Below, piece by piece: positions 2,009 to 14,687 of a stretch of DNA of 15,030 bases. The position numbers and the translations under genes are program-made. The first letter of the stretch is position 1; the number at the start of each line of letters is the position of its first letter. The notes beneath the pieces were generated by a model. The model made no database searches and was not told the DNA's origin. It saw only the letters and a list, made by a program, of their open reading frames with translations. The stretch spans positions 1 to 15,030 of the IMG/VR virus record IMGVR_UViG_3300014749_000039, one strand, 5' to 3'. Origin of the DNA: a virus (Duplodnaviria; Heunggongvirae; Uroviricota; Caudoviricetes).

Positions 2009-2971
2009 CTAAATCAGAAAGTGACTCATATTAGATCTATAAATATCAGAATTTATCTTAATTTTGCTTATTGACTCAGATATTACATTCATCAGTGAAT
2101 CATAGTCTTGACTAGTGCGCAAGGGATTAGCCAATTCATTATCAACAAGTTGTTGAGTTCCTTCGCAATTAAGTCCCAGTGGATTATCAGCCTTATGCGG
2201 TACAACAGCAAAAATAGGTCTTGCCGCTTTAATAGCAAAATCCGCCTGCGTCATTGTCCCACTATTTTTTGCTGCTTCGATTAGTATCGAAACTGCTGAT
2301 AAACCTACCTGGATTCTGTTGCGTTGCACAAATGACTGCTTGAATGCAGGCCTCCCTACAGGATACTCAGAAATCCAAGCCCCACCGTTAGATAAAATTT
2401 CATTTGCTAATCTAGCATTTTGTTTAGGCTTAGCGCTCTCTAAACCATGAGCTAATACAGCAATTGTTTTAGCACCTGCCTTAAGAGTTGCCTTGTGTGC
2501 ATTTGTATCAGTACCAATAGCTAGGCCGCTTACAATCACCACACCTCTTTCACAGATTTTCTTGGTAATTCTCTTCGTAATTTCTTCCCCTGCCATAGAA
2601 ACTTCACGAGAACCAACAATTGCAACTCCTGGCATCTCACTAAGAATATTTACGTCCCCCTTCAAATATAACATTGCTGGGGGATTTGGCGTAATTGCTA
2701 AACAAATAGGGTATTTAGCATCTCCAAAAGGAATTGGAACAATCCCCAATGATAAATGCTTGCTCAAATAGTCTTCAGCATTATGCAATGACGCTATAGA
2801 AAAGGTTGATTTTAAAATCCCGGCTGAATTAACACACTCAACCAATTCATATTCATCGGAAATAATATGGAATGGAATATCGTTAAATAATTTAAGCAAC
2901 CCTTGTTCTGATGCAAGTCTATCAACCTGTACCGATAGACCTAACAATATTTTGAATTGGGAAGGGTGCAT
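2009..2971 (-). CDS. DprA/Smf-like Rossmann-fold (SLOG-type) protein with ~100-aa N-terminal extension; second gene of the PRTase-DprA pair
   Basis: Translation contains the DprA core signature (VAIVGSREVS...VVIVSGLAIGTDTNAHKATLKAGAKTIAVLAHGLE...WISEYPVG...QRNRIQVGLS...IEAAKNSGTMTQADFAIKAARPIFAVVP). Start chosen at ATG 2969-2971, preceded by AGGAG; the listed ORF start at 2986 lacks an SD. Low GC. Confidence 0.75.
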   Translation of the reverse strand: MHPSQFKILLGLSVQVDRLASEQGLLKLFNDIPFHIISDEYELVECVNSAGILKSTFSIASLHNAEDYLSKHLSLGIVPIPFGDAKYPICLAITPNPPAMLYLKGDVNILSEMPGVAIVGSREVSMAGEEITKRITKKICERGVVIVSGLAIGTDTNAHKATLKAGAKTIAVLAHGLESAKPKQNARLANEILSNGGAWISEYPVGRPAFKQSFVQRNRIQVGLSAVSILIEAAKNSGTMTQADFAIKAARPIFAVVPHKADNPLGLNCEGTQQLVDNELANPLRTSQDYDSLMNVISESISKIKINSDIYRSNMSHFLI

Positions 2972-2975
2972 TATT

Positions 2976-3545
2976 TCACTCCTCATAATTAGCTGTTTCT
3001 AGTAACGCCAGTGGCAATATTGTCTTTGCGCCTGCATATCTTAACAGATAATAGCACGCCGTCATACTCCCCCCAGTTGTAGTAACATCATCAATAAGGA
3101 GAATAACCTTATCAGCCACATTGGATGTAACTCCGATTGTTGACATATGATGTTCGACAGAACGATCTCCGCCCCCCTTATGAGCACTCACTACTGTTGT
3201 TTTTCTCTGTAATGATTGGTTATATACAGCATTAGGAAATTTTTTCGCAATATCTTGCGCTATTTTTATTAAAGCTTGAGATACTTTTCCCTCAGCATGA
3301 GAAGGAACAATTGTTATCTCAAAGGGCACGTCGGTAAAAGCAACCCTACCAATCACATAGCTTTGGAGGCTAGAAGTTAAAAGTTGGGTAAAAATATTAA
3401 CAGCCTTTGCATACCCGGAATTTGAAGCGTCCTTCAAATCCATCATTGCCTTTGAAAGTCTATCCCCGGAACGAGGATTTCGCTCTCCTCGATATCGCCA
3501 AGGATGATATGTACCGCAAGAGTAAATTTTGATTGGCCCCATCAT
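2976..3545 (-). CDS. Phosphoribosyltransferase-domain protein (ComF/ComFC-like PRTase); first gene of the pair
   Basis: Classic PRPP-binding loop VILLIDDVTTTGGSM near the C-terminus. Stop TGA at 2976-2978 lies 4 nt upstream of the DprA-like start, so the two genes form a tight operon. Low GC. Confidence 0.75.
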   Translation of the reverse strand: MMGPIKIYSCGTYHPWRYRGERNPRSGDRLSKAMMDLKDASNSGYAKAVNIFTQLLTSSLQSYVIGRVAFTDVPFEITIVPSHAEGKVSQALIKIAQDIAKKFPNAVYNQSLQRKTTVVSAHKGGGDRSVEHHMSTIGVTSNVADKVILLIDDVTTTGGSMTACYYLLRYAGAKTILPLALLETANYEE

Positions 3546-4033: not shown

Positions 4034-4459
4034 ATGAAAAGCTTTTACGTATTAATTTTAATTCTGGTTGCAAGCTTTGTTAGCGTCCCAGTTCAGGCGG
4101 TAACAGCTAAAAACTATGAGAAAGGAACTAAAGCTCAACAGAAATCAATATCTTACCTTTCATGTGCATTCTATGGCAGTAGCACACAATTAGATCCTAG
4201 CTACACGGAGCAAGTACCTACAGCCGATATCAAGATATTACAGAAAGCAGCTTACCACGCTTACAACGATGCGCTCTCATACTTTGGTTATGAGGAACCA
4301 GATCACGAACAACGCATAATTGATTATGCTGAATTTGTGGCGTCGCAAGAAGCTGTGTTATGGGATAAACCAGGAATGAATGGAAAGCAGGTAACACTAA
4401 TTGCTCGTTCTCTCTACAATGAGAGTAACTGTAACTTGTTACTGGACTCAATTAAGTAG
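4034..4459 (+). CDS. Small secreted/periplasmic protein of unknown function (cargo gene next to cos)
   Basis: N-terminus MKSFYVLILILVASFVSVPVQA has a charged n-region, hydrophobic core and a VQA-V signal-peptidase-I-like site; no lipobox. SD GAGGT 5 nt upstream of the ATG. AT-rich relative to the phage core. Confidence 0.6.
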   Translation: MKSFYVLILILVASFVSVPVQAVTAKNYEKGTKAQQKSISYLSCAFYGSSTQLDPSYTEQVPTADIKILQKAAYHAYNDALSYFGYEEPDHEQRIIDYAEFVASQEAVLWDKPGMNGKQVTLIARSLYNESNCNLLLDSIK

Positions 4460-4618
4460 GAAAAAGATGGTATTTTGCCCGTAGTTTCAACCTTAATCTC
4501 CGAACCTGTCGCAGAACGGGCGTTCACTCATCAAATAAACGCCACACCTAACGCCTCACTGTACTCGTTGTTCAACCTTGCTGACGCCAGAAGCAATTTC
4601 AGACGCCAGCAACGTTTC

Positions 4619-4852
4619 TTAATGCAGCCAGCTGTCGTCTTCCCACACCTTCTGCATAATTTTCATCACTTGTTTTCTTTCTTCGTCCAGTTGCAGTCCG
4701 GTCAGTTCCACACCGTTAGAGCTACCTTTACGGATACGGATTACCGTTTTGGGATACAGGGGGCGCAGATTGCGGTAAAGCTCGGATTCAAGGGCGTCCA
4801 GGGTAGACTGGCTAATCTTCTGCTCTTTATCGATCATTATTTCAATGCGCAT
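4619..4852 (-). CDS. DinI-family protein
   Basis: Translation from internal ATG (4850-4852) begins MRIEIMIDKEQ... and aligns along its length with E. coli DinI (MRIEV..., ...WE..D.W at the C-terminus). GAGGTGA SD sits 8 nt upstream. The listed 101-aa ORF is an N-terminally over-extended version. Confidence 0.75.
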   Translation of the reverse strand: MRIEIMIDKEQKISQSTLDALESELYRNLRPLYPKTVIRIRKGSSNGVELTGLQLDEERKQVMKIMQKVWEDDSWLH

Positions 4853-4862
4853 AAAAGTCACC

Positions 4863-5051
4863 TCAGCTGATGACATCCATTGAGCGGTTGTATTCGTGGG
4901 TTCTGATTTTTGCCATGAGTTCATCAGTCAATTCAGAAACCCACTGCAGAGCCAGCCCCTTCTCTTCATCACTACACTCACTAGCCGCTACAAGCCTAAG
5001 AAAAAAATCAATGCGCTGGAGCTTCAAAGACTCCAAAAAATAGTCCTGCAT
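4863..5051 (-). CDS. 62-aa protein, first gene of the LexA-box operon; possible Tum-type antirepressor (function inferred from position only)
   Basis: Internal ATG at 5049-5051 is preceded by a strong SD AGGAGGAAAG; the listed 96-aa ORF start has none. Lies 10 nt upstream of the DinI-like gene and directly downstream of a LexA box. Confidence 0.55.
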   Translation of the reverse strand: MQDYFLESLKLQRIDFFLRLVAASECSDEEKGLALQWVSELTDELMAKIRTHEYNRSMDVIS

Positions 5052-5092
5052 CTTTCCTCCTATGACACCACACGCAACACTGTATGTATAAC

Positions 5093-5112
5093 CACTGTTT
5101 ATATTTACAGTA
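5093..5112. promoter_or_regulatory. LexA (SOS) box upstream of the 62-aa/DinI-like operon
   Basis: CACTGTTTATATTTACAGTA has the CTGT-N8-ACAG pattern with an AT-rich spacer, a near-consensus match, and overlaps AT-rich promoter-like sequence about 40 nt upstream of the operon start. Confidence 0.7.
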
Positions 5113-5204
5113 TATAATAATCTTACTGATGTAAAACGTTTTTTTACGTTCATCAGCCTGATATGCCTGGTATTATTAAGAGCACGAATTGTTAACCCGC
5201 GTAA

Positions 5205-7619
5205 TTAATACAGGTTCCGCCACTGATCATCTTCCTGCAAACGCTGGTTCCGATAGAAGATACGCAGGCCTGCTCCTGACGGAATACTGCCTCCGCGAAG
5301 GAGTAAATCGACCTCTTTCTCGCTGCCATCAAATCCTCTGGACTTCAGCTCATACACGAGCTGCAGTCGCTGATGGTCTGTAATTCGCTGTTTGTAGTCT
5401 TTACGCCGTTTCGGTTTCACCAGGCGTAACCTTGCTGCCAGTTCCCGGCGCTCTTTTTTGCTCATACTGTGCAGGTAATCGTGCAACTCCTTGTCATCCA
5501 TGCGGGTAATGTCCGTCCTGGTATCCCCATCAGCTGATTTATCTTTCCCTTGTTGGTTCAAATTTTCAGCAAGGGGACAGTTATTGCCACGAGTCCAAGG
5601 GGCGCAAGCGCCCTGGTCGGCTGCCGCCTCCTGAACGTCAACGGCTTTACGAACCATTTTCCACTTCACTGCATGAGTGCAGATCTTGCCCTCTGCAATG
5701 GGTGACCAGATGCCATAAATACGAATACCGTGATCGCCATAGGCGGTCGGCTCTTCGTTGATTTCATAAGCGGTTCTGATGAGGTGATATTTACGGGGAA
5801 CCAGTACGCCGCCCTGCTTCATGATGTAGGTGGCAAAGCAACCAGCATCAGCTGCAGCCAGAATGGCATCAAGGCGCGGGTTATCCAGTACCGGCGCACC
5901 TGCTTTTTTGTCACCCTGTTGCCTTGCCGCCTGACCAGCCAGCAATCGCAGTTCACGGTAAGCCTGACGCCCCGGAATGCCAAAGAAGCGGAATTGCTGA
6001 ACACGATGCAGAGACGCCCAGGCATTAACGTATTCAGCGTTATCACGCAGAGATTTACCCGTTTCCTTGCTGATCTCGCCAGCCAGACCACGCCCGTCAA
6101 TGTTCTTACTGATATATTTCGCGATGTAGCTTGTCGGCGTTCCTTTGCGCGGGTTAATCAACTCAGACTTAAAGCGCGGCCCAGTGTTATTGCCCAGCTC
6201 CTCGCGGTCTTCACGGATGGCAAACTTACGCAGTAATGCAGTGATGGCGCGGCGGTCTTTTTTGCGCATAAAACACAACAGGTGCCAGTGAACTGTACCG
6301 TCATGATGCGGCTCAGCCACCCGCACGCCATACCAGCGCAATCCGGCTTTGTGCATCGCCTTACGAAATGCAGCAAACATGCCGACCAGATAGTCGCTGC
6401 TTTGTCTTACCGTCGAGTTTGTCCAGGTCGGGTTGGGTCTGCCGTTATTGAGCGTGGAATGGAAACGCGACGGACAGGTGATAGTGTAGAAAACGGCGCA
6501 GTCACCGCGCATTTCCGCGATAAGCTCCAGACCTTTAACACAGGCCATCATCTCATTGCGGCGATGCGCCGGGTTGCTGCTGCTGGCGTTTACCACATCT
6601 TCCATATCCAGCGTGTCGCCGTCTTCGTTCACCAGTTCATGAGAACGGAAAAACTCCAGCGACTTACGGCGCTGCTCACGTTTATGCATCACGGCTTCAT
6701 AGCTGACATAGGGGGATGCTTTTTTGCTGACCAGGCAGACAGCACGCAACTGCTCTTCCCGCCATTCGCAACGCATCTTCCATAATTTCCGATACCACCA
6801 GTCGGCACACAACATACGCGCCAGCGAACCCGGAATGAGTTCATAGGGCACGGGTTTACGGCGGTTTCTTTTCCGACGGAGTTGCTCAAACGCAGGCGGA
6901 ATAACATCCAGACGCAGGGTTTCCGCTGCCACCTTTTCCCATGTTTTGCGGATTTCTTCTGGCTTAACGTCATCGGTGGCATACAAATCACCACAAGCGG
7001 CATCAAGGCACATGCTCATATGCGCAGCGACAAGGGTAGACAGGCGTTTCACCTGATCCTGACTCATTTCAGGCAGGATAAGCAGGCCATCCAGCCCTTC
7101 ATGGCTTGCCATAAAGCGAAAAGAAGTGGATAGCTGACAGTCGCGGACATGCTCCAGTCGTTCCAGACATGGCTTAATCGTCTCACGCAAATAGCGGGAA
7201 TAAGCCTTTGGCCTGCCCAGGCTGCTGAAATATTCAATACGTTGCATCAGCGGCTTGCTGATATGGGAAGGCTGGGCGTTGACGTCAGCCAGAATGACCA
7301 TGTCCGGATTAAAACGCTGCTGCTCATGCGCCAGCTTTGCCCGGCTAATGAGCTTATCCTGCTCCATTTCGCGCTGGACAGGATCACGGGATTCATTAAA
7401 GAAATAACGCTCCCAGACCTGATCACTCAGTGCCTCGCGGCGCAGTTGTTCCTGCTCGTTATCGGCAGCGTACAGAGTGATCAGGTTTGAAAGTGCAGAA
7501 ACCGGCGCAACTTCCGCCGGGTCCAGATAAGGGTTAATGGCCTTTTTTGGGCTGTTCCATGAGAATGCTGCGGCGACCTCGTTAAAGCCGCTGCAGTTGT
7601 TCATATCAGCATGGCTCAT
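5205..7619 (-). CDS. Rolling-circle replication initiation endonuclease, P2/186 gpA-like
   Basis: ~800-aa protein with an HUH-type motif ([10 protein letters not shown]) and a twin-tyrosine motif ([10 protein letters not shown]) typical of superfamily I rolling-circle initiators. Start chosen at ATG 7617-7619, which overlaps the Dam stop as ATGA; the listed ORF begins at an upstream TTG (7646). Confidence 0.8.
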
Positions 7620-9187: not shown

Positions 9188-9406
9188 TCATGGATTTTTT
9201 GCAATAAAGAATTGGGCAGCCAGTGCCCGTTTATTTTGTTCGCTATTAATATCGCGTGGATCACGCATATCTTTAATAAACCGTTCAAGCTCTGACTCAA
9301 TATTCAGACCAAAAACTTTCGCCCTTAACTCCGCAATGTGATTAAGTCCATTCAGGCGTTCACCGGGGCCTAATGGAACAGTCGCCGCAGCGCCATTAAT
9401 TGCCAT
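9188..9406 (-). CDS. Hypothetical early protein (72 aa); ends inside a tandem imperfect duplication
   Basis: ATG start at 9404-9406. Its C-terminal segment DPRDINSEQNKRALAAQFFIAKNP is repeated in diverged form in the +1 frame immediately downstream (ORF 8998..9300). Confidence 0.4.
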   Translation of the reverse strand: MAINGAAATVPLGPGERLNGLNHIAELRAKVFGLNIESELERFIKDMRDPRDINSEQNKRALAAQFFIAKNP

Positions 9407-9428
9407 AATTCATATTCCCAAAACGCAA

Positions 9429-9653
9429 CTATCGCTCTTTGTTCTTACGGTAACGCTCAAGAGGAGATATATTTTTTCGTATCATCTCTTTAACCTGCTC
9501 TCCCCGTAAAAACGTCCCATCCTTTAGCGTGAAAAAGTAACTGCCATCGCCCGACAACGACGGATAACAACAGAGCAAATCATCTTCAGATACTGAATAA
9601 CTCTCCCCTCTGTAACGAAACTGATAAACCACTTCACTTTCCGCTGCATACAT
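9429..9653 (-). CDS. Hypothetical early protein (74 aa)
   Basis: ATG at 9651-9653 with GGAGAAAG SD 6 nt upstream; overlaps the upstream ORF by 130 nt in another frame. Confidence 0.45.
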   Translation of the reverse strand: MYAAESEVVYQFRYRGESYSVSEDDLLCCYPSLSGDGSYFFTLKDGTFLRGEQVKEMIRKNISPLERYRKNKER

Positions 9654-10733: not shown

Positions 10734-11366
10734 ATGTTAAACATCAGAATGGGTTCCGATACGGGAGGTAAAGCAGCTATTGAGAGGCTGCTTGCGGCTT
10801 ATGGATTCACAACTAAGCAGGCATTAAGTGAGCACCTGAATGTCTCAAAAAGCACTATGGCAAACAGAGTGTTACGTGACAGCTTTCCTGCTGACTGGAT
10901 AATTCAGTGCGCACTAGAAACCGGTGTTTCGTTGCTTTGGTTAGCTACAGGACAGGGAAGCATGAAAGCAGGATCTGAGACTGAAAAAAGATCTCACAAT
11001 GAGAACAAACAAGCAATTAAACCGTTATCTAAACTCATAACTCCATCTATTCCTAAAGGAACCTTGGAGAATGGACAACTCAGTATTGATGAAGAGATTT
11101 TCCTAGACCACAGCATATTACCTGCAAATTATGAAGAATCGATGTTCTTAGAAACCCCTACTGATTGTTATCTCATCGATAAATCAGTTAAACAAGTCAG
11201 CAATGGATTCTGGCTTATCAATATTGATGGAATGATTATTATTGCAAAAATTATGCGGATTCCCGGCAATAAGATTGTAGTAAATCAAGATGAAGCGTCT
11301 TTCGAGTGCTCTGCTGATGATGTGGAAGTTATTGGGCGTGCAGTCAAAGTAATAAAGAGTATCTAA
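10734..11366 (+). CDS. cI: CI-type immunity repressor (186 CI-like)
   Basis: 210-aa protein with N-terminal HTH region (TKQALSEHLNVSKSTMANRV) and motifs resembling 186 CI (CALETGVSLLWLATGQG; GFWLINIDG...FEC..DDVEVIGR). GGAG SD; divergent from apl and upstream of int. Confidence 0.75.
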   Translation: MLNIRMGSDTGGKAAIERLLAAYGFTTKQALSEHLNVSKSTMANRVLRDSFPADWIIQCALETGVSLLWLATGQGSMKAGSETEKRSHNENKQAIKPLSKLITPSIPKGTLENGQLSIDEEIFLDHSILPANYEESMFLETPTDCYLIDKSVKQVSNGFWLINIDGMIIIAKIMRIPGNKIVVNQDEASFECSADDVEVIGRAVKVIKSI

Positions 11367-12758: not shown

Positions 12759-14492
12759 CTACTCAAGAAGATATTCTAACTCATCTTTTATCGGGATAAC
12801 TTGCTCATAAAGTCGGTGATATGACTTCCCAATTGCGCCTCTGAATTGTATTAACTTTGGTGGCTTGTTACCTATATTAATAATATGGTCTTGAGCTATA
12901 CCTGGGTAGGGATCAATAAATACAATTTCAGATATACCTAACTGATAAGCTTTTTTCGCACACAGCTCACAGGGACTGGCAGTTGTATATAACCTCCCCC
13001 CCTGAACGCCAATGCCACCATATTTTGCAAGTTGTAAAAATGCGTTTTCCTCAGCATGTAATGCACGTGTATGAACTTGATTACCTTTTTTATCTTTATC
13101 AAGATCATTATGTATATCTTTAAAACAATAAGATAAGTTCCTGCCTCTATAAATATCACCAGTTTTATCTATCGCCCTAAAATTTAATAGTTTCTCATTA
13201 GCTTTAATTCTGAAAGAACTATTATTTCTCTCATAATGACTGTACACTTTTTCATCAAAGTCGTTCATTAGGCCATCTAGCGATCTCATAGAGCAAGGAA
13301 TCTGACCGTTGGCGACATCATTCCAACCCACTGATTTTATTGAGTTTTCACCATCAGTTACTACAGCTCCCACCTGTCTAGATATACAACCAGAGTTTAA
13401 TTTTACCGTATACGCAACTTGCATAACCCTTTCCATTGCAGTAGGTGTTATCAGACCAGGATGCTTCATCAGTGCGATGTACCACGCTAATTGTGCTTTT
13501 AAAATATTGTCATTATCAAATTCATTTTTTGGGTTAAAAATGTGTATATCTGATAGTTCAATGCATTTAGTTACATTTGGATTAGTGAGATGTTTGTAAG
13601 AGTTATCACCTTTACCTGACTCTACAGAATCTATTTCCTCTATCTGCTTTTCAGAAAACTTATGTAGTTTCCGCAAATAGTTTGTTCGATGTTCATCTGG
13701 GGCATTTATTGACATTAAATGAAATGCAGAATATCTATCCTTAAAAAATTTTGCTTCATATGGATTTCTAATAGCATCTATGACAATTAATGCGTTATCT
13801 CTTTTGCTTTTTCTTATTAATTTAATAACCCTATTAATAGTTTCCGGCAAATGAAAAACAGATTTAGGTATAAACTCTTTATCTTCAAAATCGACTTCAA
13901 TACGCCCACGGCGTCTAATTGACTTACCTGCTAACTGATAGACTGAAACATATAAATTTGAGTTTATCGCATTTAGTTCAGCTTTGAATTCCTTAGTAAA
14001 TTTTCTAACTAACCTCAAAATTGATATAAATTTATTAATCGTTTTTTCATTAAGCTTCAATTCACTATTATGATCAAGCAAATTCTCAATTACATTTTTA
14101 AATCTTGTTAAAATGAGATTATCTGAAAATACACCAAAAGTTAATACATTATCTAAATGCTCTTTACTGATAGATTTATTAGATGATAGAATAAACTCAG
14201 AAGCTTCTTCAACTGTTAACATCAAAAGATACGCTGAGATTAGGTCACTCACCTTAATTGAGTAAAAATTTTCCCAGTGATTTTCTGCGAATTTTTTAAC
14301 TATATTATAACGATGGACATCCAATCCCTTGTAAAAACCCTGTAATTTACTTACATCAGGGAAGACTGTTTTTTCGTTTTCAAGAATATTAGCTGTTGTT
14401 GTGCAACCAGAACCAGTTCGACCTGTCAAACCGACTAAAATAAACTGCCCATTTTCAAGGAAAAGCTCACTAACGAATTTTTTTTCTTTCAT
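12759..14492 (-). CDS. P-loop kinase-like + deoxycytidylate/cytidine deaminase fusion protein (AvcD / defensive dCTP-deaminase-like)
   Basis: N-terminal nucleotide-binding loop LVGLTGRTGSGCTTT and C-terminal zinc-deaminase motifs HAEENAFLQ...PCELCAKKAYQLGISEIVF (H[AC]E...PCxxC). Very AT-rich gene in an AT-rich islet between int and the ssrA fragment. First codon is GTG (14493-14495) or ATG at 14490-14492. Confidence 0.75.
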   Translation of the reverse strand: MKEKKFVSELFLENGQFILVGLTGRTGSGCTTTANILENEKTVFPDVSKLQGFYKGLDVHRYNIVKKFAENHWENFYSIKVSDLISAYLLMLTVEEASEFILSSNKSISKEHLDNVLTFGVFSDNLILTRFKNVIENLLDHNSELKLNEKTINKFISILRLVRKFTKEFKAELNAINSNLYVSVYQLAGKSIRRRGRIEVDFEDKEFIPKSVFHLPETINRVIKLIRKSKRDNALIVIDAIRNPYEAKFFKDRYSAFHLMSINAPDEHRTNYLRKLHKFSEKQIEEIDSVESGKGDNSYKHLTNPNVTKCIELSDIHIFNPKNEFDNDNILKAQLAWYIALMKHPGLITPTAMERVMQVAYTVKLNSGCISRQVGAVVTDGENSIKSVGWNDVANGQIPCSMRSLDGLMNDFDEKVYSHYERNNSSFRIKANEKLLNFRAIDKTGDIYRGRNLSYCFKDIHNDLDKDKKGNQVHTRALHAEENAFLQLAKYGGIGVQGGRLYTTASPCELCAKKAYQLGISEIVFIDPYPGIAQDHIINIGNKPPKLIQFRGAIGKSYHRLYEQVIPIKDELEYLLE

Positions 14493-14687
14493 CACGTCCC
14501 ACTTATGAATGTAAGAATATTCAACATATTAATTATAATTTATTAACTCATTTTGTTCTAGATACTTGATGTAATGGCGGCACTTTGGCGACGGAGCATT
14601 AAAAACGCGTAAGACGAGCAAATACAACAAAACACTAACACATTGTTTTTAAATATAAATAGCTGTTTTTACTATACTAAAAATGGT

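What the first reader, a model, noticed from the sequence alone, without database searches (positions are those of the whole stretch)
4619..5112. LexA-box-controlled bicistronic operon: 62-aa protein + DinI-like protein (Tum-like induction module)
Seen: a near-consensus LexA box (CACTGTTTATATTTACAGTA) overlapping the promoter region, then two short genes with strong SDs 10 nt apart; the second is clearly DinI-family. Established: phage 186 is SOS-inducible through a LexA-repressed antirepressor (Tum), and DinI-like proteins modulate RecA. Inference: the 62-aa protein is the best candidate antirepressor for the CI-like repressor in this window, though it is much shorter than 186 Tum as I remember it, so it may be a different family. 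The DinI homolog would also let the prophage adjust the host SOS response.
Basis: partly seen in the sequence, partly recalled or inferred. Interest (0 to 1): 0.45.

Follow-up and report, generated by a model that had tools for sequence, protein, structure and literature searches.

The report
Split tum (tumA-tumB) SOS induction operon
This is the known DNA-damage switch of a 186/Fels-2-type E. coli prophage: a LexA-repressed two-gene operon encoding a small antirepressor (TumA) and a DinI-like protein (TumB). It is ordinary and present in about a fifth of complete E. coli genomes.

Summary
On the minus strand, just after replication gene A, lie a LexA box (5093-5112), a 62-aa gene (5051-4863) and, 10 nt later, a 77-aa DinI-family gene (4852-4619).

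The 62-aa protein is not a new family. Profile searches link it to the N-terminal half of 186 Tum and to PSP3 TumA. It is 97% identical to Fels-2 STM2728 and to the E. coli HS prophage gene 'tum'. An in-frame deletion of that gene, made with primers that match this window exactly, abolishes mitomycin C induction.

The literature already says that Fels-2 and PSP3 carry tum split by a stop codon, antirepressor half first and DinI half second. The module occurs in 1125 of 5426 complete E. coli genomes. It is already known.

Two small additions:
- The operator is double. A second, overlapping box (5078-5097) sits in the register and nearly the sequence of colicin double SOS boxes. 186 and PSP3 lack it.
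- Near-identical TumA accompanies CI repressors that are only 43-60% identical overall. Their N-terminal DNA-binding domains stay 67-80% identical, which hints that TumA targets that domain.

The parts
5120..5162 (-). Hairpin between the end of gene A and the tum promoter. It overlaps the -35 and may be a terminator or insulator for early-operon read-through.
   Evidence: RNA fold: -18.4 kcal/mol for the 88-nt stretch 5118-5205, z=-2.3. Lemire 2011 notes terminator-like palindromes before the LexA boxes of Gifsy prophages. Weak; not followed up.
5107..5135 (-). Putative sigma-70 promoter: -35 TTTACA (5135-5130), 17-nt spacer, -10 TACTGT (5112-5107).
   Evidence: Read. Same layout as the p95 promoter annotated in the 186 record. 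Not called by the consensus scan because the -10 matches only 3 of 6 positions. Conserved in Fels-2, E. coli HS, 813R9 and others.
5093..5112 (-). LexA (SOS) box 1: TACTGTAAATATAAACAGTG. It overlaps the -10.
   Evidence: Unique in the window, 0.00 expected. A box is present upstream of tumA or tum in all 14 phages examined; in Klebsiella phage ST15-OXA48phi14.1 its right-hand CAG is mutated to CAT.
5078..5097 (-). LexA box 2: CAGTGGTTATACATACAGTG, core GTG-N10-CAG. It shares one base with box 1, giving a colicin-type double SOS operator.
   Evidence: The combined pattern gives 1 match against 0.01 expected. It is in register with, and nearly identical to, the double boxes of ColE1 cea and a Klebsiella colicin-E3-like gene. 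Eight of the nine phages with this TumA type keep the core; the ninth has a G-to-T change at the shared base. It is absent from 186, PSP3, ESSI2_ev015, ESSI-2 and YenM_06.16-2.
4863..5051 (-). tumA: 62-aa antirepressor, homologous to the N-terminal half of 186 Tum; stop codon included. Shine-Dalgarno AGGAGG at 5061-5056.
   Evidence: PHROG matches: phrog_698 at 6.6e-38, with cross-hits to phrog_8554 and phrog_1993, which also hold the 186 Tum N-terminus and PSP3 TumA. 97% identical to Fels-2 STM2728 and to E. coli HS tum. dN/dS 0.06-0.12. AlphaFold2 model is a helical hairpin, pLDDT 89.
4619..4852 (-). tumB: 77-aa DinI-family protein; stop codon included. Shine-Dalgarno GAGGTG at 4864-4859, overlapping the tumA stop codon.
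   Evidence: PF06183 at 6.6e-23. 41% identical to residues 71-145 of 186 Tum, 78% to PSP3 TumB and 100% to the Fels-2 and HS proteins. Matches E. coli DinI structure 1ghh at 2.7e-6.
4574..4616 (-). Stable hairpin just after the tumB stop codon, with no U tract. Possibly the 3' end or a stabiliser of the operon transcript.
   Evidence: RNA fold: -31.8 kcal/mol for the 96-nt stretch 4530-4625, z=-2.8. It lies inside the block shared with related phages, which ends near 4548. The terminator scan did not call it.
10734..11366 (+). cI: 186-type immunity repressor and the presumed target of TumA.
   Evidence: PF07022 + PF16452 with no S24 peptidase domain. Matches the 186 CI structure 2fjr at 2.8e-26.

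Best explanation
This is the SOS induction operon of a 186/Fels-2-type (Peduoviridae) prophage of E. coli, in its split form, tumA-tumB.

**Proposed sequence of events**
1. In the lysogen, LexA sits on a double operator (two overlapping boxes, 5078-5112) that covers the -10 and the start of the transcript. The operon is silent.
2. DNA damage activates RecA, LexA cleaves itself, and the operon is transcribed.
3. TumA, a 62-aa helical hairpin, binds the 186-type CI repressor, which cannot cleave itself, and stops it binding its operators. The early lytic promoter then fires, and excision and lytic growth follow.
4. TumB, the DinI-like protein, is translated from its own Shine-Dalgarno 10 nt downstream and probably modulates RecA filament activity, and so the size or duration of the SOS signal.

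**Basis of each step**
- Shown directly by the sequence: the boxes, the genes, and their conservation and selection.
- Shown experimentally in a 97%-identical orthologue: the need for tumA and for cleavable LexA.
- Established for 186 Tum: binding to CI and blocking of its DNA binding.
- Inferred: TumA acting on this particular CI, contact through the CI N-terminal domain, cooperative or late derepression from the double box, and the role of TumB.
For: - **Synteny.** The arrangement gene A, LexA box, tum matches 186, PSP3, Fels-2 and E. coli HS.
- **Homology of TumA to the Tum N-terminal half.** TumA hits phrog_698 (6.6e-38), phrog_8554 (1.2e-8) and phrog_1993 (9.6e-4). 186 Tum residues 1-70 hit phrog_1993 (2e-23), phrog_8554 (3.3e-12) and phrog_698 (6.7e-6). 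PSP3 TumA hits phrog_1993 (2.7e-32). The family aligns without gaps over about 50 residues.
- **TumB.** It is 41% identical to the Tum C-terminal half.
- **Literature.** Tum is an antirepressor half fused to a DinI half. Fels-2 and PSP3 have it split by a stop codon, and the upstream PSP3 gene carries the antirepressor activity (PMC3121763). The PSP3 record annotates tumA ('UV induction of prophage') and tumB.
- **Genetics.** In E. coli HS, both delta-tum and lexA(Ind-) block mitomycin C induction (PMC12055606). The deletion primers fuse exactly the ATG and TGA of the 62-aa ORF and match the window at 5049-5071 and 4843-4865 without a mismatch. HS TumA is 97% and HS TumB 100% identical to the window's proteins.
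- **Repressor.** CI lacks a self-cleavage domain.
- **Selection and spread.** Both genes are under purifying selection. The module is in 1125 of 5426 complete E. coli genomes.
- **TumA alone.** Related phages carry a LexA box and TumA without any DinI gene, which fits TumA being the essential part.
Against: - No experiment exists on this prophage itself.
- Its CI is only 43% identical to the HS CI and 60% to the Fels-2 CI. The TumA-CI pairing here is therefore extrapolated.
- Pairwise BLAST of TumA against 186 Tum finds nothing; the homology rests on profiles.
- The lexA(Ind-) phenotype in HS shows dependence on LexA, not direct binding at this operator.
- The generic promoter scan did not call the promoter.
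- Non-polar dinI deletions in Gifsy prophages had no effect on induction, so the contribution of TumB may be small.
Confidence: 0.85

Rival explanations
1. The operon is a genuine SOS operon, but in this prophage TumA no longer matches the resident CI. It would then be a mosaic leftover that is inert here, or that acts only in trans on other co-resident P2-like prophages.
For: TumA is at least 97% identical across phages whose CI proteins are only 43-60% identical overall and 30-58% in the C-terminal domain. Their pR operator regions also differ. Peduoviridae are mosaic. Trans-acting antirepressors are documented for Gifsy and Fels-1.
Against: The CI N-terminal domain stays 67-80% identical to the window's in every phage that carries this TumA type. 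Across the 66 phage pairs, TumA identity tracks the N-terminal domain (Spearman 0.77) much better than the C-terminal domain (0.36). tumA is under strong purifying selection in all these contexts. HS, whose CI is the most divergent of the set overall, is the phage in which tum was shown to be required.
Confidence: 0.08
2. The 62-aa protein is not an antirepressor. It is instead a partner or regulator of the DinI-like protein, or of RecA or LexA, and induction proceeds by another route.
For: It is co-transcribed with the DinI-like gene, only 10 nt away, and fused to it in 186. It has no Pfam or NCBIfam family, no solved relative and no informative fold match.
Against: In HS the delta-tum strain still shows normal SOS reporter activation yet does not lyse. 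Tum therefore acts downstream of SOS, on the prophage. TumA homologues occur without any DinI gene in ESSI2_ev015, ESSI-2 and YenM_06.16-2. 186 Tum is reported to bind CI and prevent operator binding (186 record).
Confidence: 0.04
3. The real first gene is the longer 96-aa ORF (5153-4863). The 'LexA box' then lies inside coding sequence and is a chance match.
For: The mechanical ORF list gives 4863-5153 with an ATG start. Some database entries call longer versions of 84-121 aa.
Against: The extension is interrupted by stop codons in HS and SopEPhi and put out of frame by a 1-nt indel in Fels-2. The strong Shine-Dalgarno sits before the ATG at 5051. The box is unique in the window, with 0.00 expected by chance, and is conserved upstream of every homologue examined.
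Confidence: 0.01

Closest known systems
PSP3 tumA-tumB and the Fels-2 pair STM2728 / STM2726.1 (split tum)
   Same: Same position after gene A and a LexA box overlapping the promoter. A gene of about 60 aa is followed within 3-10 nt by a 77-aa DinI-family gene. TumA is 97% identical to Fels-2 STM2728 and TumB 100% identical to the Fels-2 protein; TumB is 78% identical to PSP3 TumB. The split is described in the literature, with the antirepressor activity assigned to the upstream gene.
   Different: PSP3 TumA belongs to a different sub-family (phrog_1993, about 12-16% pairwise identity), and PSP3 has a single LexA box. Compared with Fels-2, the differences are the CI (60% identity) and the cargo downstream of tumB.
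E. coli HS prophage DuoHS 'tum' (Phollow study)
   Same: TumA is 97% and TumB 100% identical. LexA box 1 is identical and box 2 differs at one position. The published deletion primers match this window exactly. Deleting the gene, or making LexA non-cleavable, abolishes mitomycin C induction.
   Different: The HS CI is only 43% identical overall and 67% in the N-terminal domain. HS carries other genes downstream of tumB.
Coliphage 186 Tum (146 aa) and its p95 SOS operon
   Same: A LexA-repressed promoter with the box starting at the -10, located after gene A. The N-terminal half is related to TumA and the C-terminal half is DinI-like. It acts on a 186-type CI that does not self-cleave.
   Different: 186 has one fused polypeptide, with internal starts that also yield the DinI-like part separately. 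It has a single LexA box and orf97 downstream. TumA identity is only about 21-24% and is detectable only with profiles.
Colicin operon double SOS boxes (ColE1 cea, colicin-E3-like genes)
   Same: Two LexA boxes overlapping by one base, CTG-N10-CAGTG-N10-CAG. Box 2 of Fels-2 is identical to box 2 of ColE1, and the window differs from it at 3 of 20 positions. In colicin operons the pair binds two LexA dimers and gives very tight repression (PMC2994835).
   Different: The controlled genes are unrelated (a bacteriocin rather than an antirepressor), and the promoter hexamers sit differently relative to the boxes. Binding of two LexA dimers has not been tested here.
Gifsy-1/2/3 dinI-gfoA/gftA operons (Salmonella)
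   Same: A LexA-controlled prophage operon that combines a DinI homologue with a small antirepressor acting on a repressor that does not self-cleave.
   Different: The gene order is reversed, with dinI first. The phages are lambdoid and have a different repressor family. Sequence similarity between GfoA/GftA and TumA was not tested here.

Membership tests
TumA-type antirepressor (N-terminal half of 186 Tum; PSP3 TumA; Fels-2 STM2728) | Sequence homology to the Tum N-terminal half or to PSP3 TumA | tested here: met
   Reciprocal PHROG profile hits link the three sub-families phrog_698, phrog_8554 and phrog_1993. The family aligns without gaps. The protein is 97% identical to Fels-2 STM2728 and HS tum. 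Pairwise BLAST against 186 Tum alone finds nothing.
TumA-type antirepressor (N-terminal half of 186 Tum; PSP3 TumA; Fels-2 STM2728) | Located directly downstream of replication gene A, under a promoter overlapped by a LexA box | tested here: met
TumA-type antirepressor (N-terminal half of 186 Tum; PSP3 TumA; Fels-2 STM2728) | The resident immunity repressor is 186-type CI without a RecA-dependent self-cleavage domain | tested here: met
   PF07022 + PF16452 only. Matches the 186 CI structures 2fjr and 2fkd.
TumA-type antirepressor (N-terminal half of 186 Tum; PSP3 TumA; Fels-2 STM2728) | Binds CI, blocks operator binding and is required for SOS induction | not testable with these tools
   The genetic requirement is shown for the 97%-identical HS orthologue. 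Biochemistry is reported only for 186 Tum.
186 Tum proper (fused 146-aa protein) | Antirepressor and DinI-like halves in a single polypeptide | tested here: not met
   A TGA stop at 4865-4863, a 10-nt spacer, and a separate Shine-Dalgarno and ATG for the DinI-like gene.
DinI family (Pfam PF06183) | Match to the family model above the curated threshold | tested here: met
   81.3 bits against a cut-off of 24.2, E=6.6e-23, covering the whole 63-position model. Matches E. coli DinI structure 1ghh at E=2.7e-6 over residues 1-75.
DinI family (Pfam PF06183) | Equivalog of chromosomal E. coli DinI (NCBIfam NF007893) | tested here: not met
   42.7 bits against a cut-off of 111. It is a phage-borne paralogue of the TumB type, not the host dinI.
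DinI family (Pfam PF06183) | Binds RecA filaments and modulates co-protease activity | not testable with these tools
   Inferred from family membership. The 186 record describes the truncated Tum forms as modulating SOS induction.
LexA (SOS) regulon member | A 20-bp box with the CTGT-N8-ACAG core, close to consensus, overlapping the promoter | tested here: met
   3 mismatches to the consensus, unique in the window, 0.00 expected. Conserved in 14 of 14 related loci, one of them carrying a point mutation in the box.
LexA (SOS) regulon member | LexA binding and damage-inducible transcription | not testable with these tools
   In HS, lexA(Ind-) blocks induction. No footprint is available.
Colicin-type double SOS operator | Two boxes overlapping by one base, CTG-N10-CAG then GTG-N10-CAG | tested here: met
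   1 match against 0.01 expected. In register with ColE1 cea and a colicin-E3-like promoter.
Colicin-type double SOS operator | Occupancy by two LexA dimers, giving tighter or later derepression | not testable with these tools
   Known for colicin operons. Untested for this promoter.

The most novel reading that the evidence does not exclude
The Fels-2/HS/window lineage may have rebuilt the tum switch in two ways that I could not find described.

1. Its operator is a colicin-type double SOS box. This would make prophage induction a tightly repressed, late, high-threshold SOS function, unlike the single-box 186 and PSP3.
2. One nearly invariant TumA serves CI repressors whose C-terminal domains and operators have diverged but whose N-terminal DNA-binding domains are conserved. 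TumA would then be a clade-wide antirepressor that targets the CI N-terminal domain, and it could co-induce heteroimmune P2-like prophages in the same cell.
Probability: 0.3. Interest if true: 0.35.

Novelty: already known. Interest (0 to 1): 0.15.

Why it matters
The practical value is in annotation. The antirepressor that decides SOS induction of one of the commonest E. coli, Salmonella and Klebsiella prophage types is labelled 'hypothetical protein' wherever a name is given. That holds for the listed best 120 of 1086 protein clusters, and the protein has no Pfam or NCBIfam model. Only its DinI-like neighbour gets a name. Recognising it as tumA lets one predict which P2-like prophages, and the defence cargo they carry, are SOS-inducible. 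If the double operator and the clade-wide TumA specificity hold up, they would explain low spontaneous induction and possible co-induction of several P2-like prophages.

Tried and rejected
- **Pairwise BLAST of the 62-aa protein against 186 Tum.** No hit. Only profiles show the relationship.
- **Pfam, NCBIfam and PDB sequence searches for TumA.** Nothing found.
- **AlphaFold2 model plus Foldseek against PDB.** The model is a confident helical hairpin, but the matches are generic helical hairpins only, none with E below 0.001. This was uninformative.
- **Consensus promoter and terminator scan.** It did not call the tum promoter or an operon terminator. Its one terminator-like hit (4857-4874) is a weak hairpin across the tumA stop codon and tumB Shine-Dalgarno, with z=-1.3, not distinguishable from shuffles.
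- **Rfam scan of the whole window.** No RNA family.
- **MAFFT alignment of promoter regions.** It aligned the single 186/PSP3 box with box 2 of the window, which is an alignment artefact between unrelated flanks. The register analysis supersedes it.
- **Primary papers.** Shearwin 1998, Lamont 1989, Bunny 2002 and Gillor 2008 are not held. What they say is cited second-hand through PMC3121763 and the GenBank annotations.
- **The long 96-aa ORF.** Rejected.
- **A literature search for 'TumA/TumB'.** It returned only unrelated papers.

Full report
**What is there**

Read on the minus strand, the sequence after the end of replication gene A (5205) contains the following, in order:
- a hairpin (5162-5120);
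- a promoter-like pair, TTTACA (5135-5130), 17 nt, TACTGT (5112-5107);
- the LexA box TACTGTAAATATAAACAGTG (5112-5093);
- an AGGAGG Shine-Dalgarno and a 62-codon ORF (5051-4863);
- 10 nt containing GAGGTG;
- a 77-codon ORF (4852-4619).

The box is the only match in the window within 3 mismatches of the 20-mer consensus, with 0.00 expected by chance. The second ORF is a clear DinI-family protein: PF06183 at 6.6e-23 and E. coli DinI structure 1ghh at 2.7e-6.

**Context**

The window is a 186/Fels-2-like Peduoviridae prophage. Its genes include:
- int, a 186-type cI, and apl/cox, cII, a Dam methylase and gene A;
- the portal and terminase genes at the left end.

The CI protein has the Phage_CI_repr and Phage_CI_C domains and no S24 peptidase domain. 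Its closest solved relative is 186 CI. It therefore cannot be inactivated by RecA-stimulated self-cleavage and needs an antirepressor.

In phage 186 the same position after gene A holds the p95 promoter, a LexA site that starts at the -10, and tum.

**What the 62-aa protein is**

BLAST against 186 Tum finds nothing, but profiles do:
- The 62-aa protein hits phrog_698 (6.6e-38), phrog_8554 (1.2e-8) and phrog_1993 (9.6e-4).
- Residues 1-70 of 186 Tum hit phrog_1993 (2e-23), phrog_8554 (3.3e-12) and phrog_698 (6.7e-6).
- PSP3 TumA hits phrog_1993 (2.7e-32).

A family alignment is gap-free over about 50 residues. The DinI-like protein is 41% identical to residues 71-145 of Tum. The two genes are therefore the two halves of tum.

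This is already described:
- Lemire et al. 2011 (PMC3121763, citing Bunny, Liu & Roth 2002) state that Tum looks like an antirepressor fused to DinI. They add that Fels-2 and PSP3 have tum split by a stop codon, and that in PSP3 the upstream gene carries the antirepressor activity.
- The PSP3 record names the genes tumA ('UV induction of prophage') and tumB.
- The window's TumA is 97% identical to Fels-2 STM2728.

**Experimental support in a near-identical orthologue**

The Phollow study showed that the P2-like prophage of E. coli HS is not induced by mitomycin C in a delta-tum strain or a lexA(Ind-) strain. The SOS reporter still fires in delta-tum (PMC12055606).

The primer table of the preprint shows that the deletion fuses ATG to TGA within GTGGTGTCATAGGAGGAAAGATG|TGAGGTGACTTTTATGCGCATTG. 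Both halves occur without a mismatch in this window, at 5049-5071 and 4843-4865. These are exactly the start and stop of the 62-aa ORF.

HS TumA is 97% identical to the window's and HS TumB is 100% identical. So 'tum' in that work is this gene, and the DinI-like gene was left in place.

**Reality and spread of the genes**

- dN/dS is 0.06-0.12 for tumA and 0.03-0.10 for tumB, at dS of about 1.
- The alternative 96-aa reading from 5153 is broken by stops or a frameshift in relatives.
- The 641-bp module is present in 1125 of 5426 complete E. coli genomes and in 68 phage records, mainly from Klebsiella, Salmonella and Escherichia.
- A profile search finds 1086 protein clusters. Among the best 120 that were listed, none has a Pfam domain and every one that a source names is called 'hypothetical'. 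There is also no NCBIfam model.
- Some relatives (ESSI2_ev015, ESSI-2, Yersinia YenM_06.16-2) carry a LexA box plus TumA without any DinI gene. This fits TumA being the essential component.

**Addition 1: a double operator**

Fifteen bases after the start of box 1 there is a second 20-mer, CAGTGGTTATACATACAGTG (5097-5078). Its core is GTG-N10-CAG and it shares one base with box 1. The combined pattern CTG-N10-CAGTG-N10-CAG occurs once in the window, against 0.01 expected.

A BLAST of the 45-bp operator against plasmids hit hundreds of small Col-type plasmids. In the two I opened, the match lies just upstream of cea (colicin E1) and of a colicin-E3-like gene. The alignment is in register: ColE1 reads CTGTATATAAAACCAGTGGTTATATGTACAG and the window reads CTGTAAATATAAACAGTGGTTATACATACAG. 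Box 2 of Fels-2 is identical to box 2 of ColE1.

Of the nine phages with the phrog_698-type TumA, eight keep box 2 intact; the ninth, a Klebsiella phage, has a G-to-T change at the shared base. 186, PSP3, ESSI2_ev015, ESSI-2 and YenM have a single box and a short leader.

I found no mention of this in the searchable literature, but I could not read Bunny 2002. Function is inferred only.

**Addition 2: TumA does not track immunity type**

Among phages whose TumA is at least 97% identical to the window's (813R9, Fels-2, HS, Klebsiella ST15-OXA48phi14.1), CI is only 43-60% identical overall. Their pR operator regions also differ.

Splitting CI by domain gives the following identities to the window's CI:

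| CI region | Window residues | Identity to window CI in the seven other phages with TumA at least 82% identical |
|---|---|---|
| N-terminal DNA-binding domain | 10-75 | 67-80% |
| C-terminal domain | 107-210 | 30-58% |

Over the 66 phage pairs, TumA identity correlates with N-terminal identity (Spearman 0.77) more than with C-terminal identity (0.36). This is descriptive and is confounded by phylogeny. It does fit TumA contacting the DNA-binding domain, consistent with the report that 186 Tum prevents operator binding.

**Structure**

AlphaFold2 on a shallow alignment gives a confident helical hairpin: helices 2-23 and 28-61, mean pLDDT 89. No PDB structure is significantly similar.

**Verdict**

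The thing itself is the known split tum (tumA-tumB) SOS operon, near-identical to those of Fels-2 and the E. coli HS prophage. Novelty: already known. Interest is low. The double colicin-type operator and the apparently clade-wide TumA are modest leads worth a bench test.

Noticed in passing
window 2009-3545 (-): A two-gene ShosTA (Shosta) anti-phage defence system sits in the variable cargo slot between tumB and the portal gene. The DprA-like protein matches ShosA (9.3e-70) and the phosphoribosyltransferase matches ShosT (2.7e-18). 186, Fels-2 and HS carry other genes here: orf97 in 186, and genes annotated as hypothetical in Fels-2 and HS.
   Followed up: partly
window 12759-14495 (-): A 578-aa anti-phage dCTP deaminase (PADLOC dCTPase at 2.9e-145) lies just outside int. 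In E. coli KK19-02 it sits between the host gene ypjA and the prophage integrase and is annotated 'anti-phage dCTP deaminase'. Whether it lies inside the prophage boundary was not determined.
   Followed up: partly
window 4034-4459 (+): A 141-aa ORF convergent with tumB matches phrog_7437 (4.3e-99, unknown function). It has no Pfam, NCBIfam or PADLOC hit. It lies in the cargo hotspot next to ShosTA.
   Followed up: no
L006 (Klebsiella phage ST15-OXA48phi14.1), about 7250-7270, upstream of tumA: The single G shared by the two overlapping LexA boxes is mutated to T, so box 1 ends CAT and box 2 starts TTG. TumA is nevertheless 100% identical to the window's. This predicts weakened LexA repression and perhaps higher spontaneous induction.
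   Followed up: no
window 4857-4874 (-): A small hairpin (GTCATC...GGTGAC) pairs the last codons of tumA with the tumB Shine-Dalgarno, which could couple tumB translation to tumA. It is conserved in Fels-2, but its stability is not distinguishable from shuffles (z=-1.3).
   Followed up: partly
window 4574-4616 (-): A strong hairpin directly after the tumB stop codon, without a U tract. The fold of 4530-4625 gives -31.8 kcal/mol, z=-2.8. It lies inside the block conserved with related phages and may be the 3' end or a stabiliser of the operon mRNA.
   Followed up: no
window 9340-9430 compared with L016 (E. coli KK19-02): KK19-02 matches the tum module 100%, but gene coordinates drift by 67 nt between the DUF5347 gene and the 74-aa ORF (9429-9653). 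The window is therefore not identical to that prophage across the early region. The KK19-02 record also annotates a truncated fil pseudogene there.
   Followed up: no
L011, L012, L013 (phages ESSI2_ev015, ESSI-2, Yersinia vB_YenM_06.16-2): These relatives have a LexA box and a TumA homologue but no DinI-like gene. In ESSI-2 the TumA ORF is not annotated at all.
   Followed up: partly
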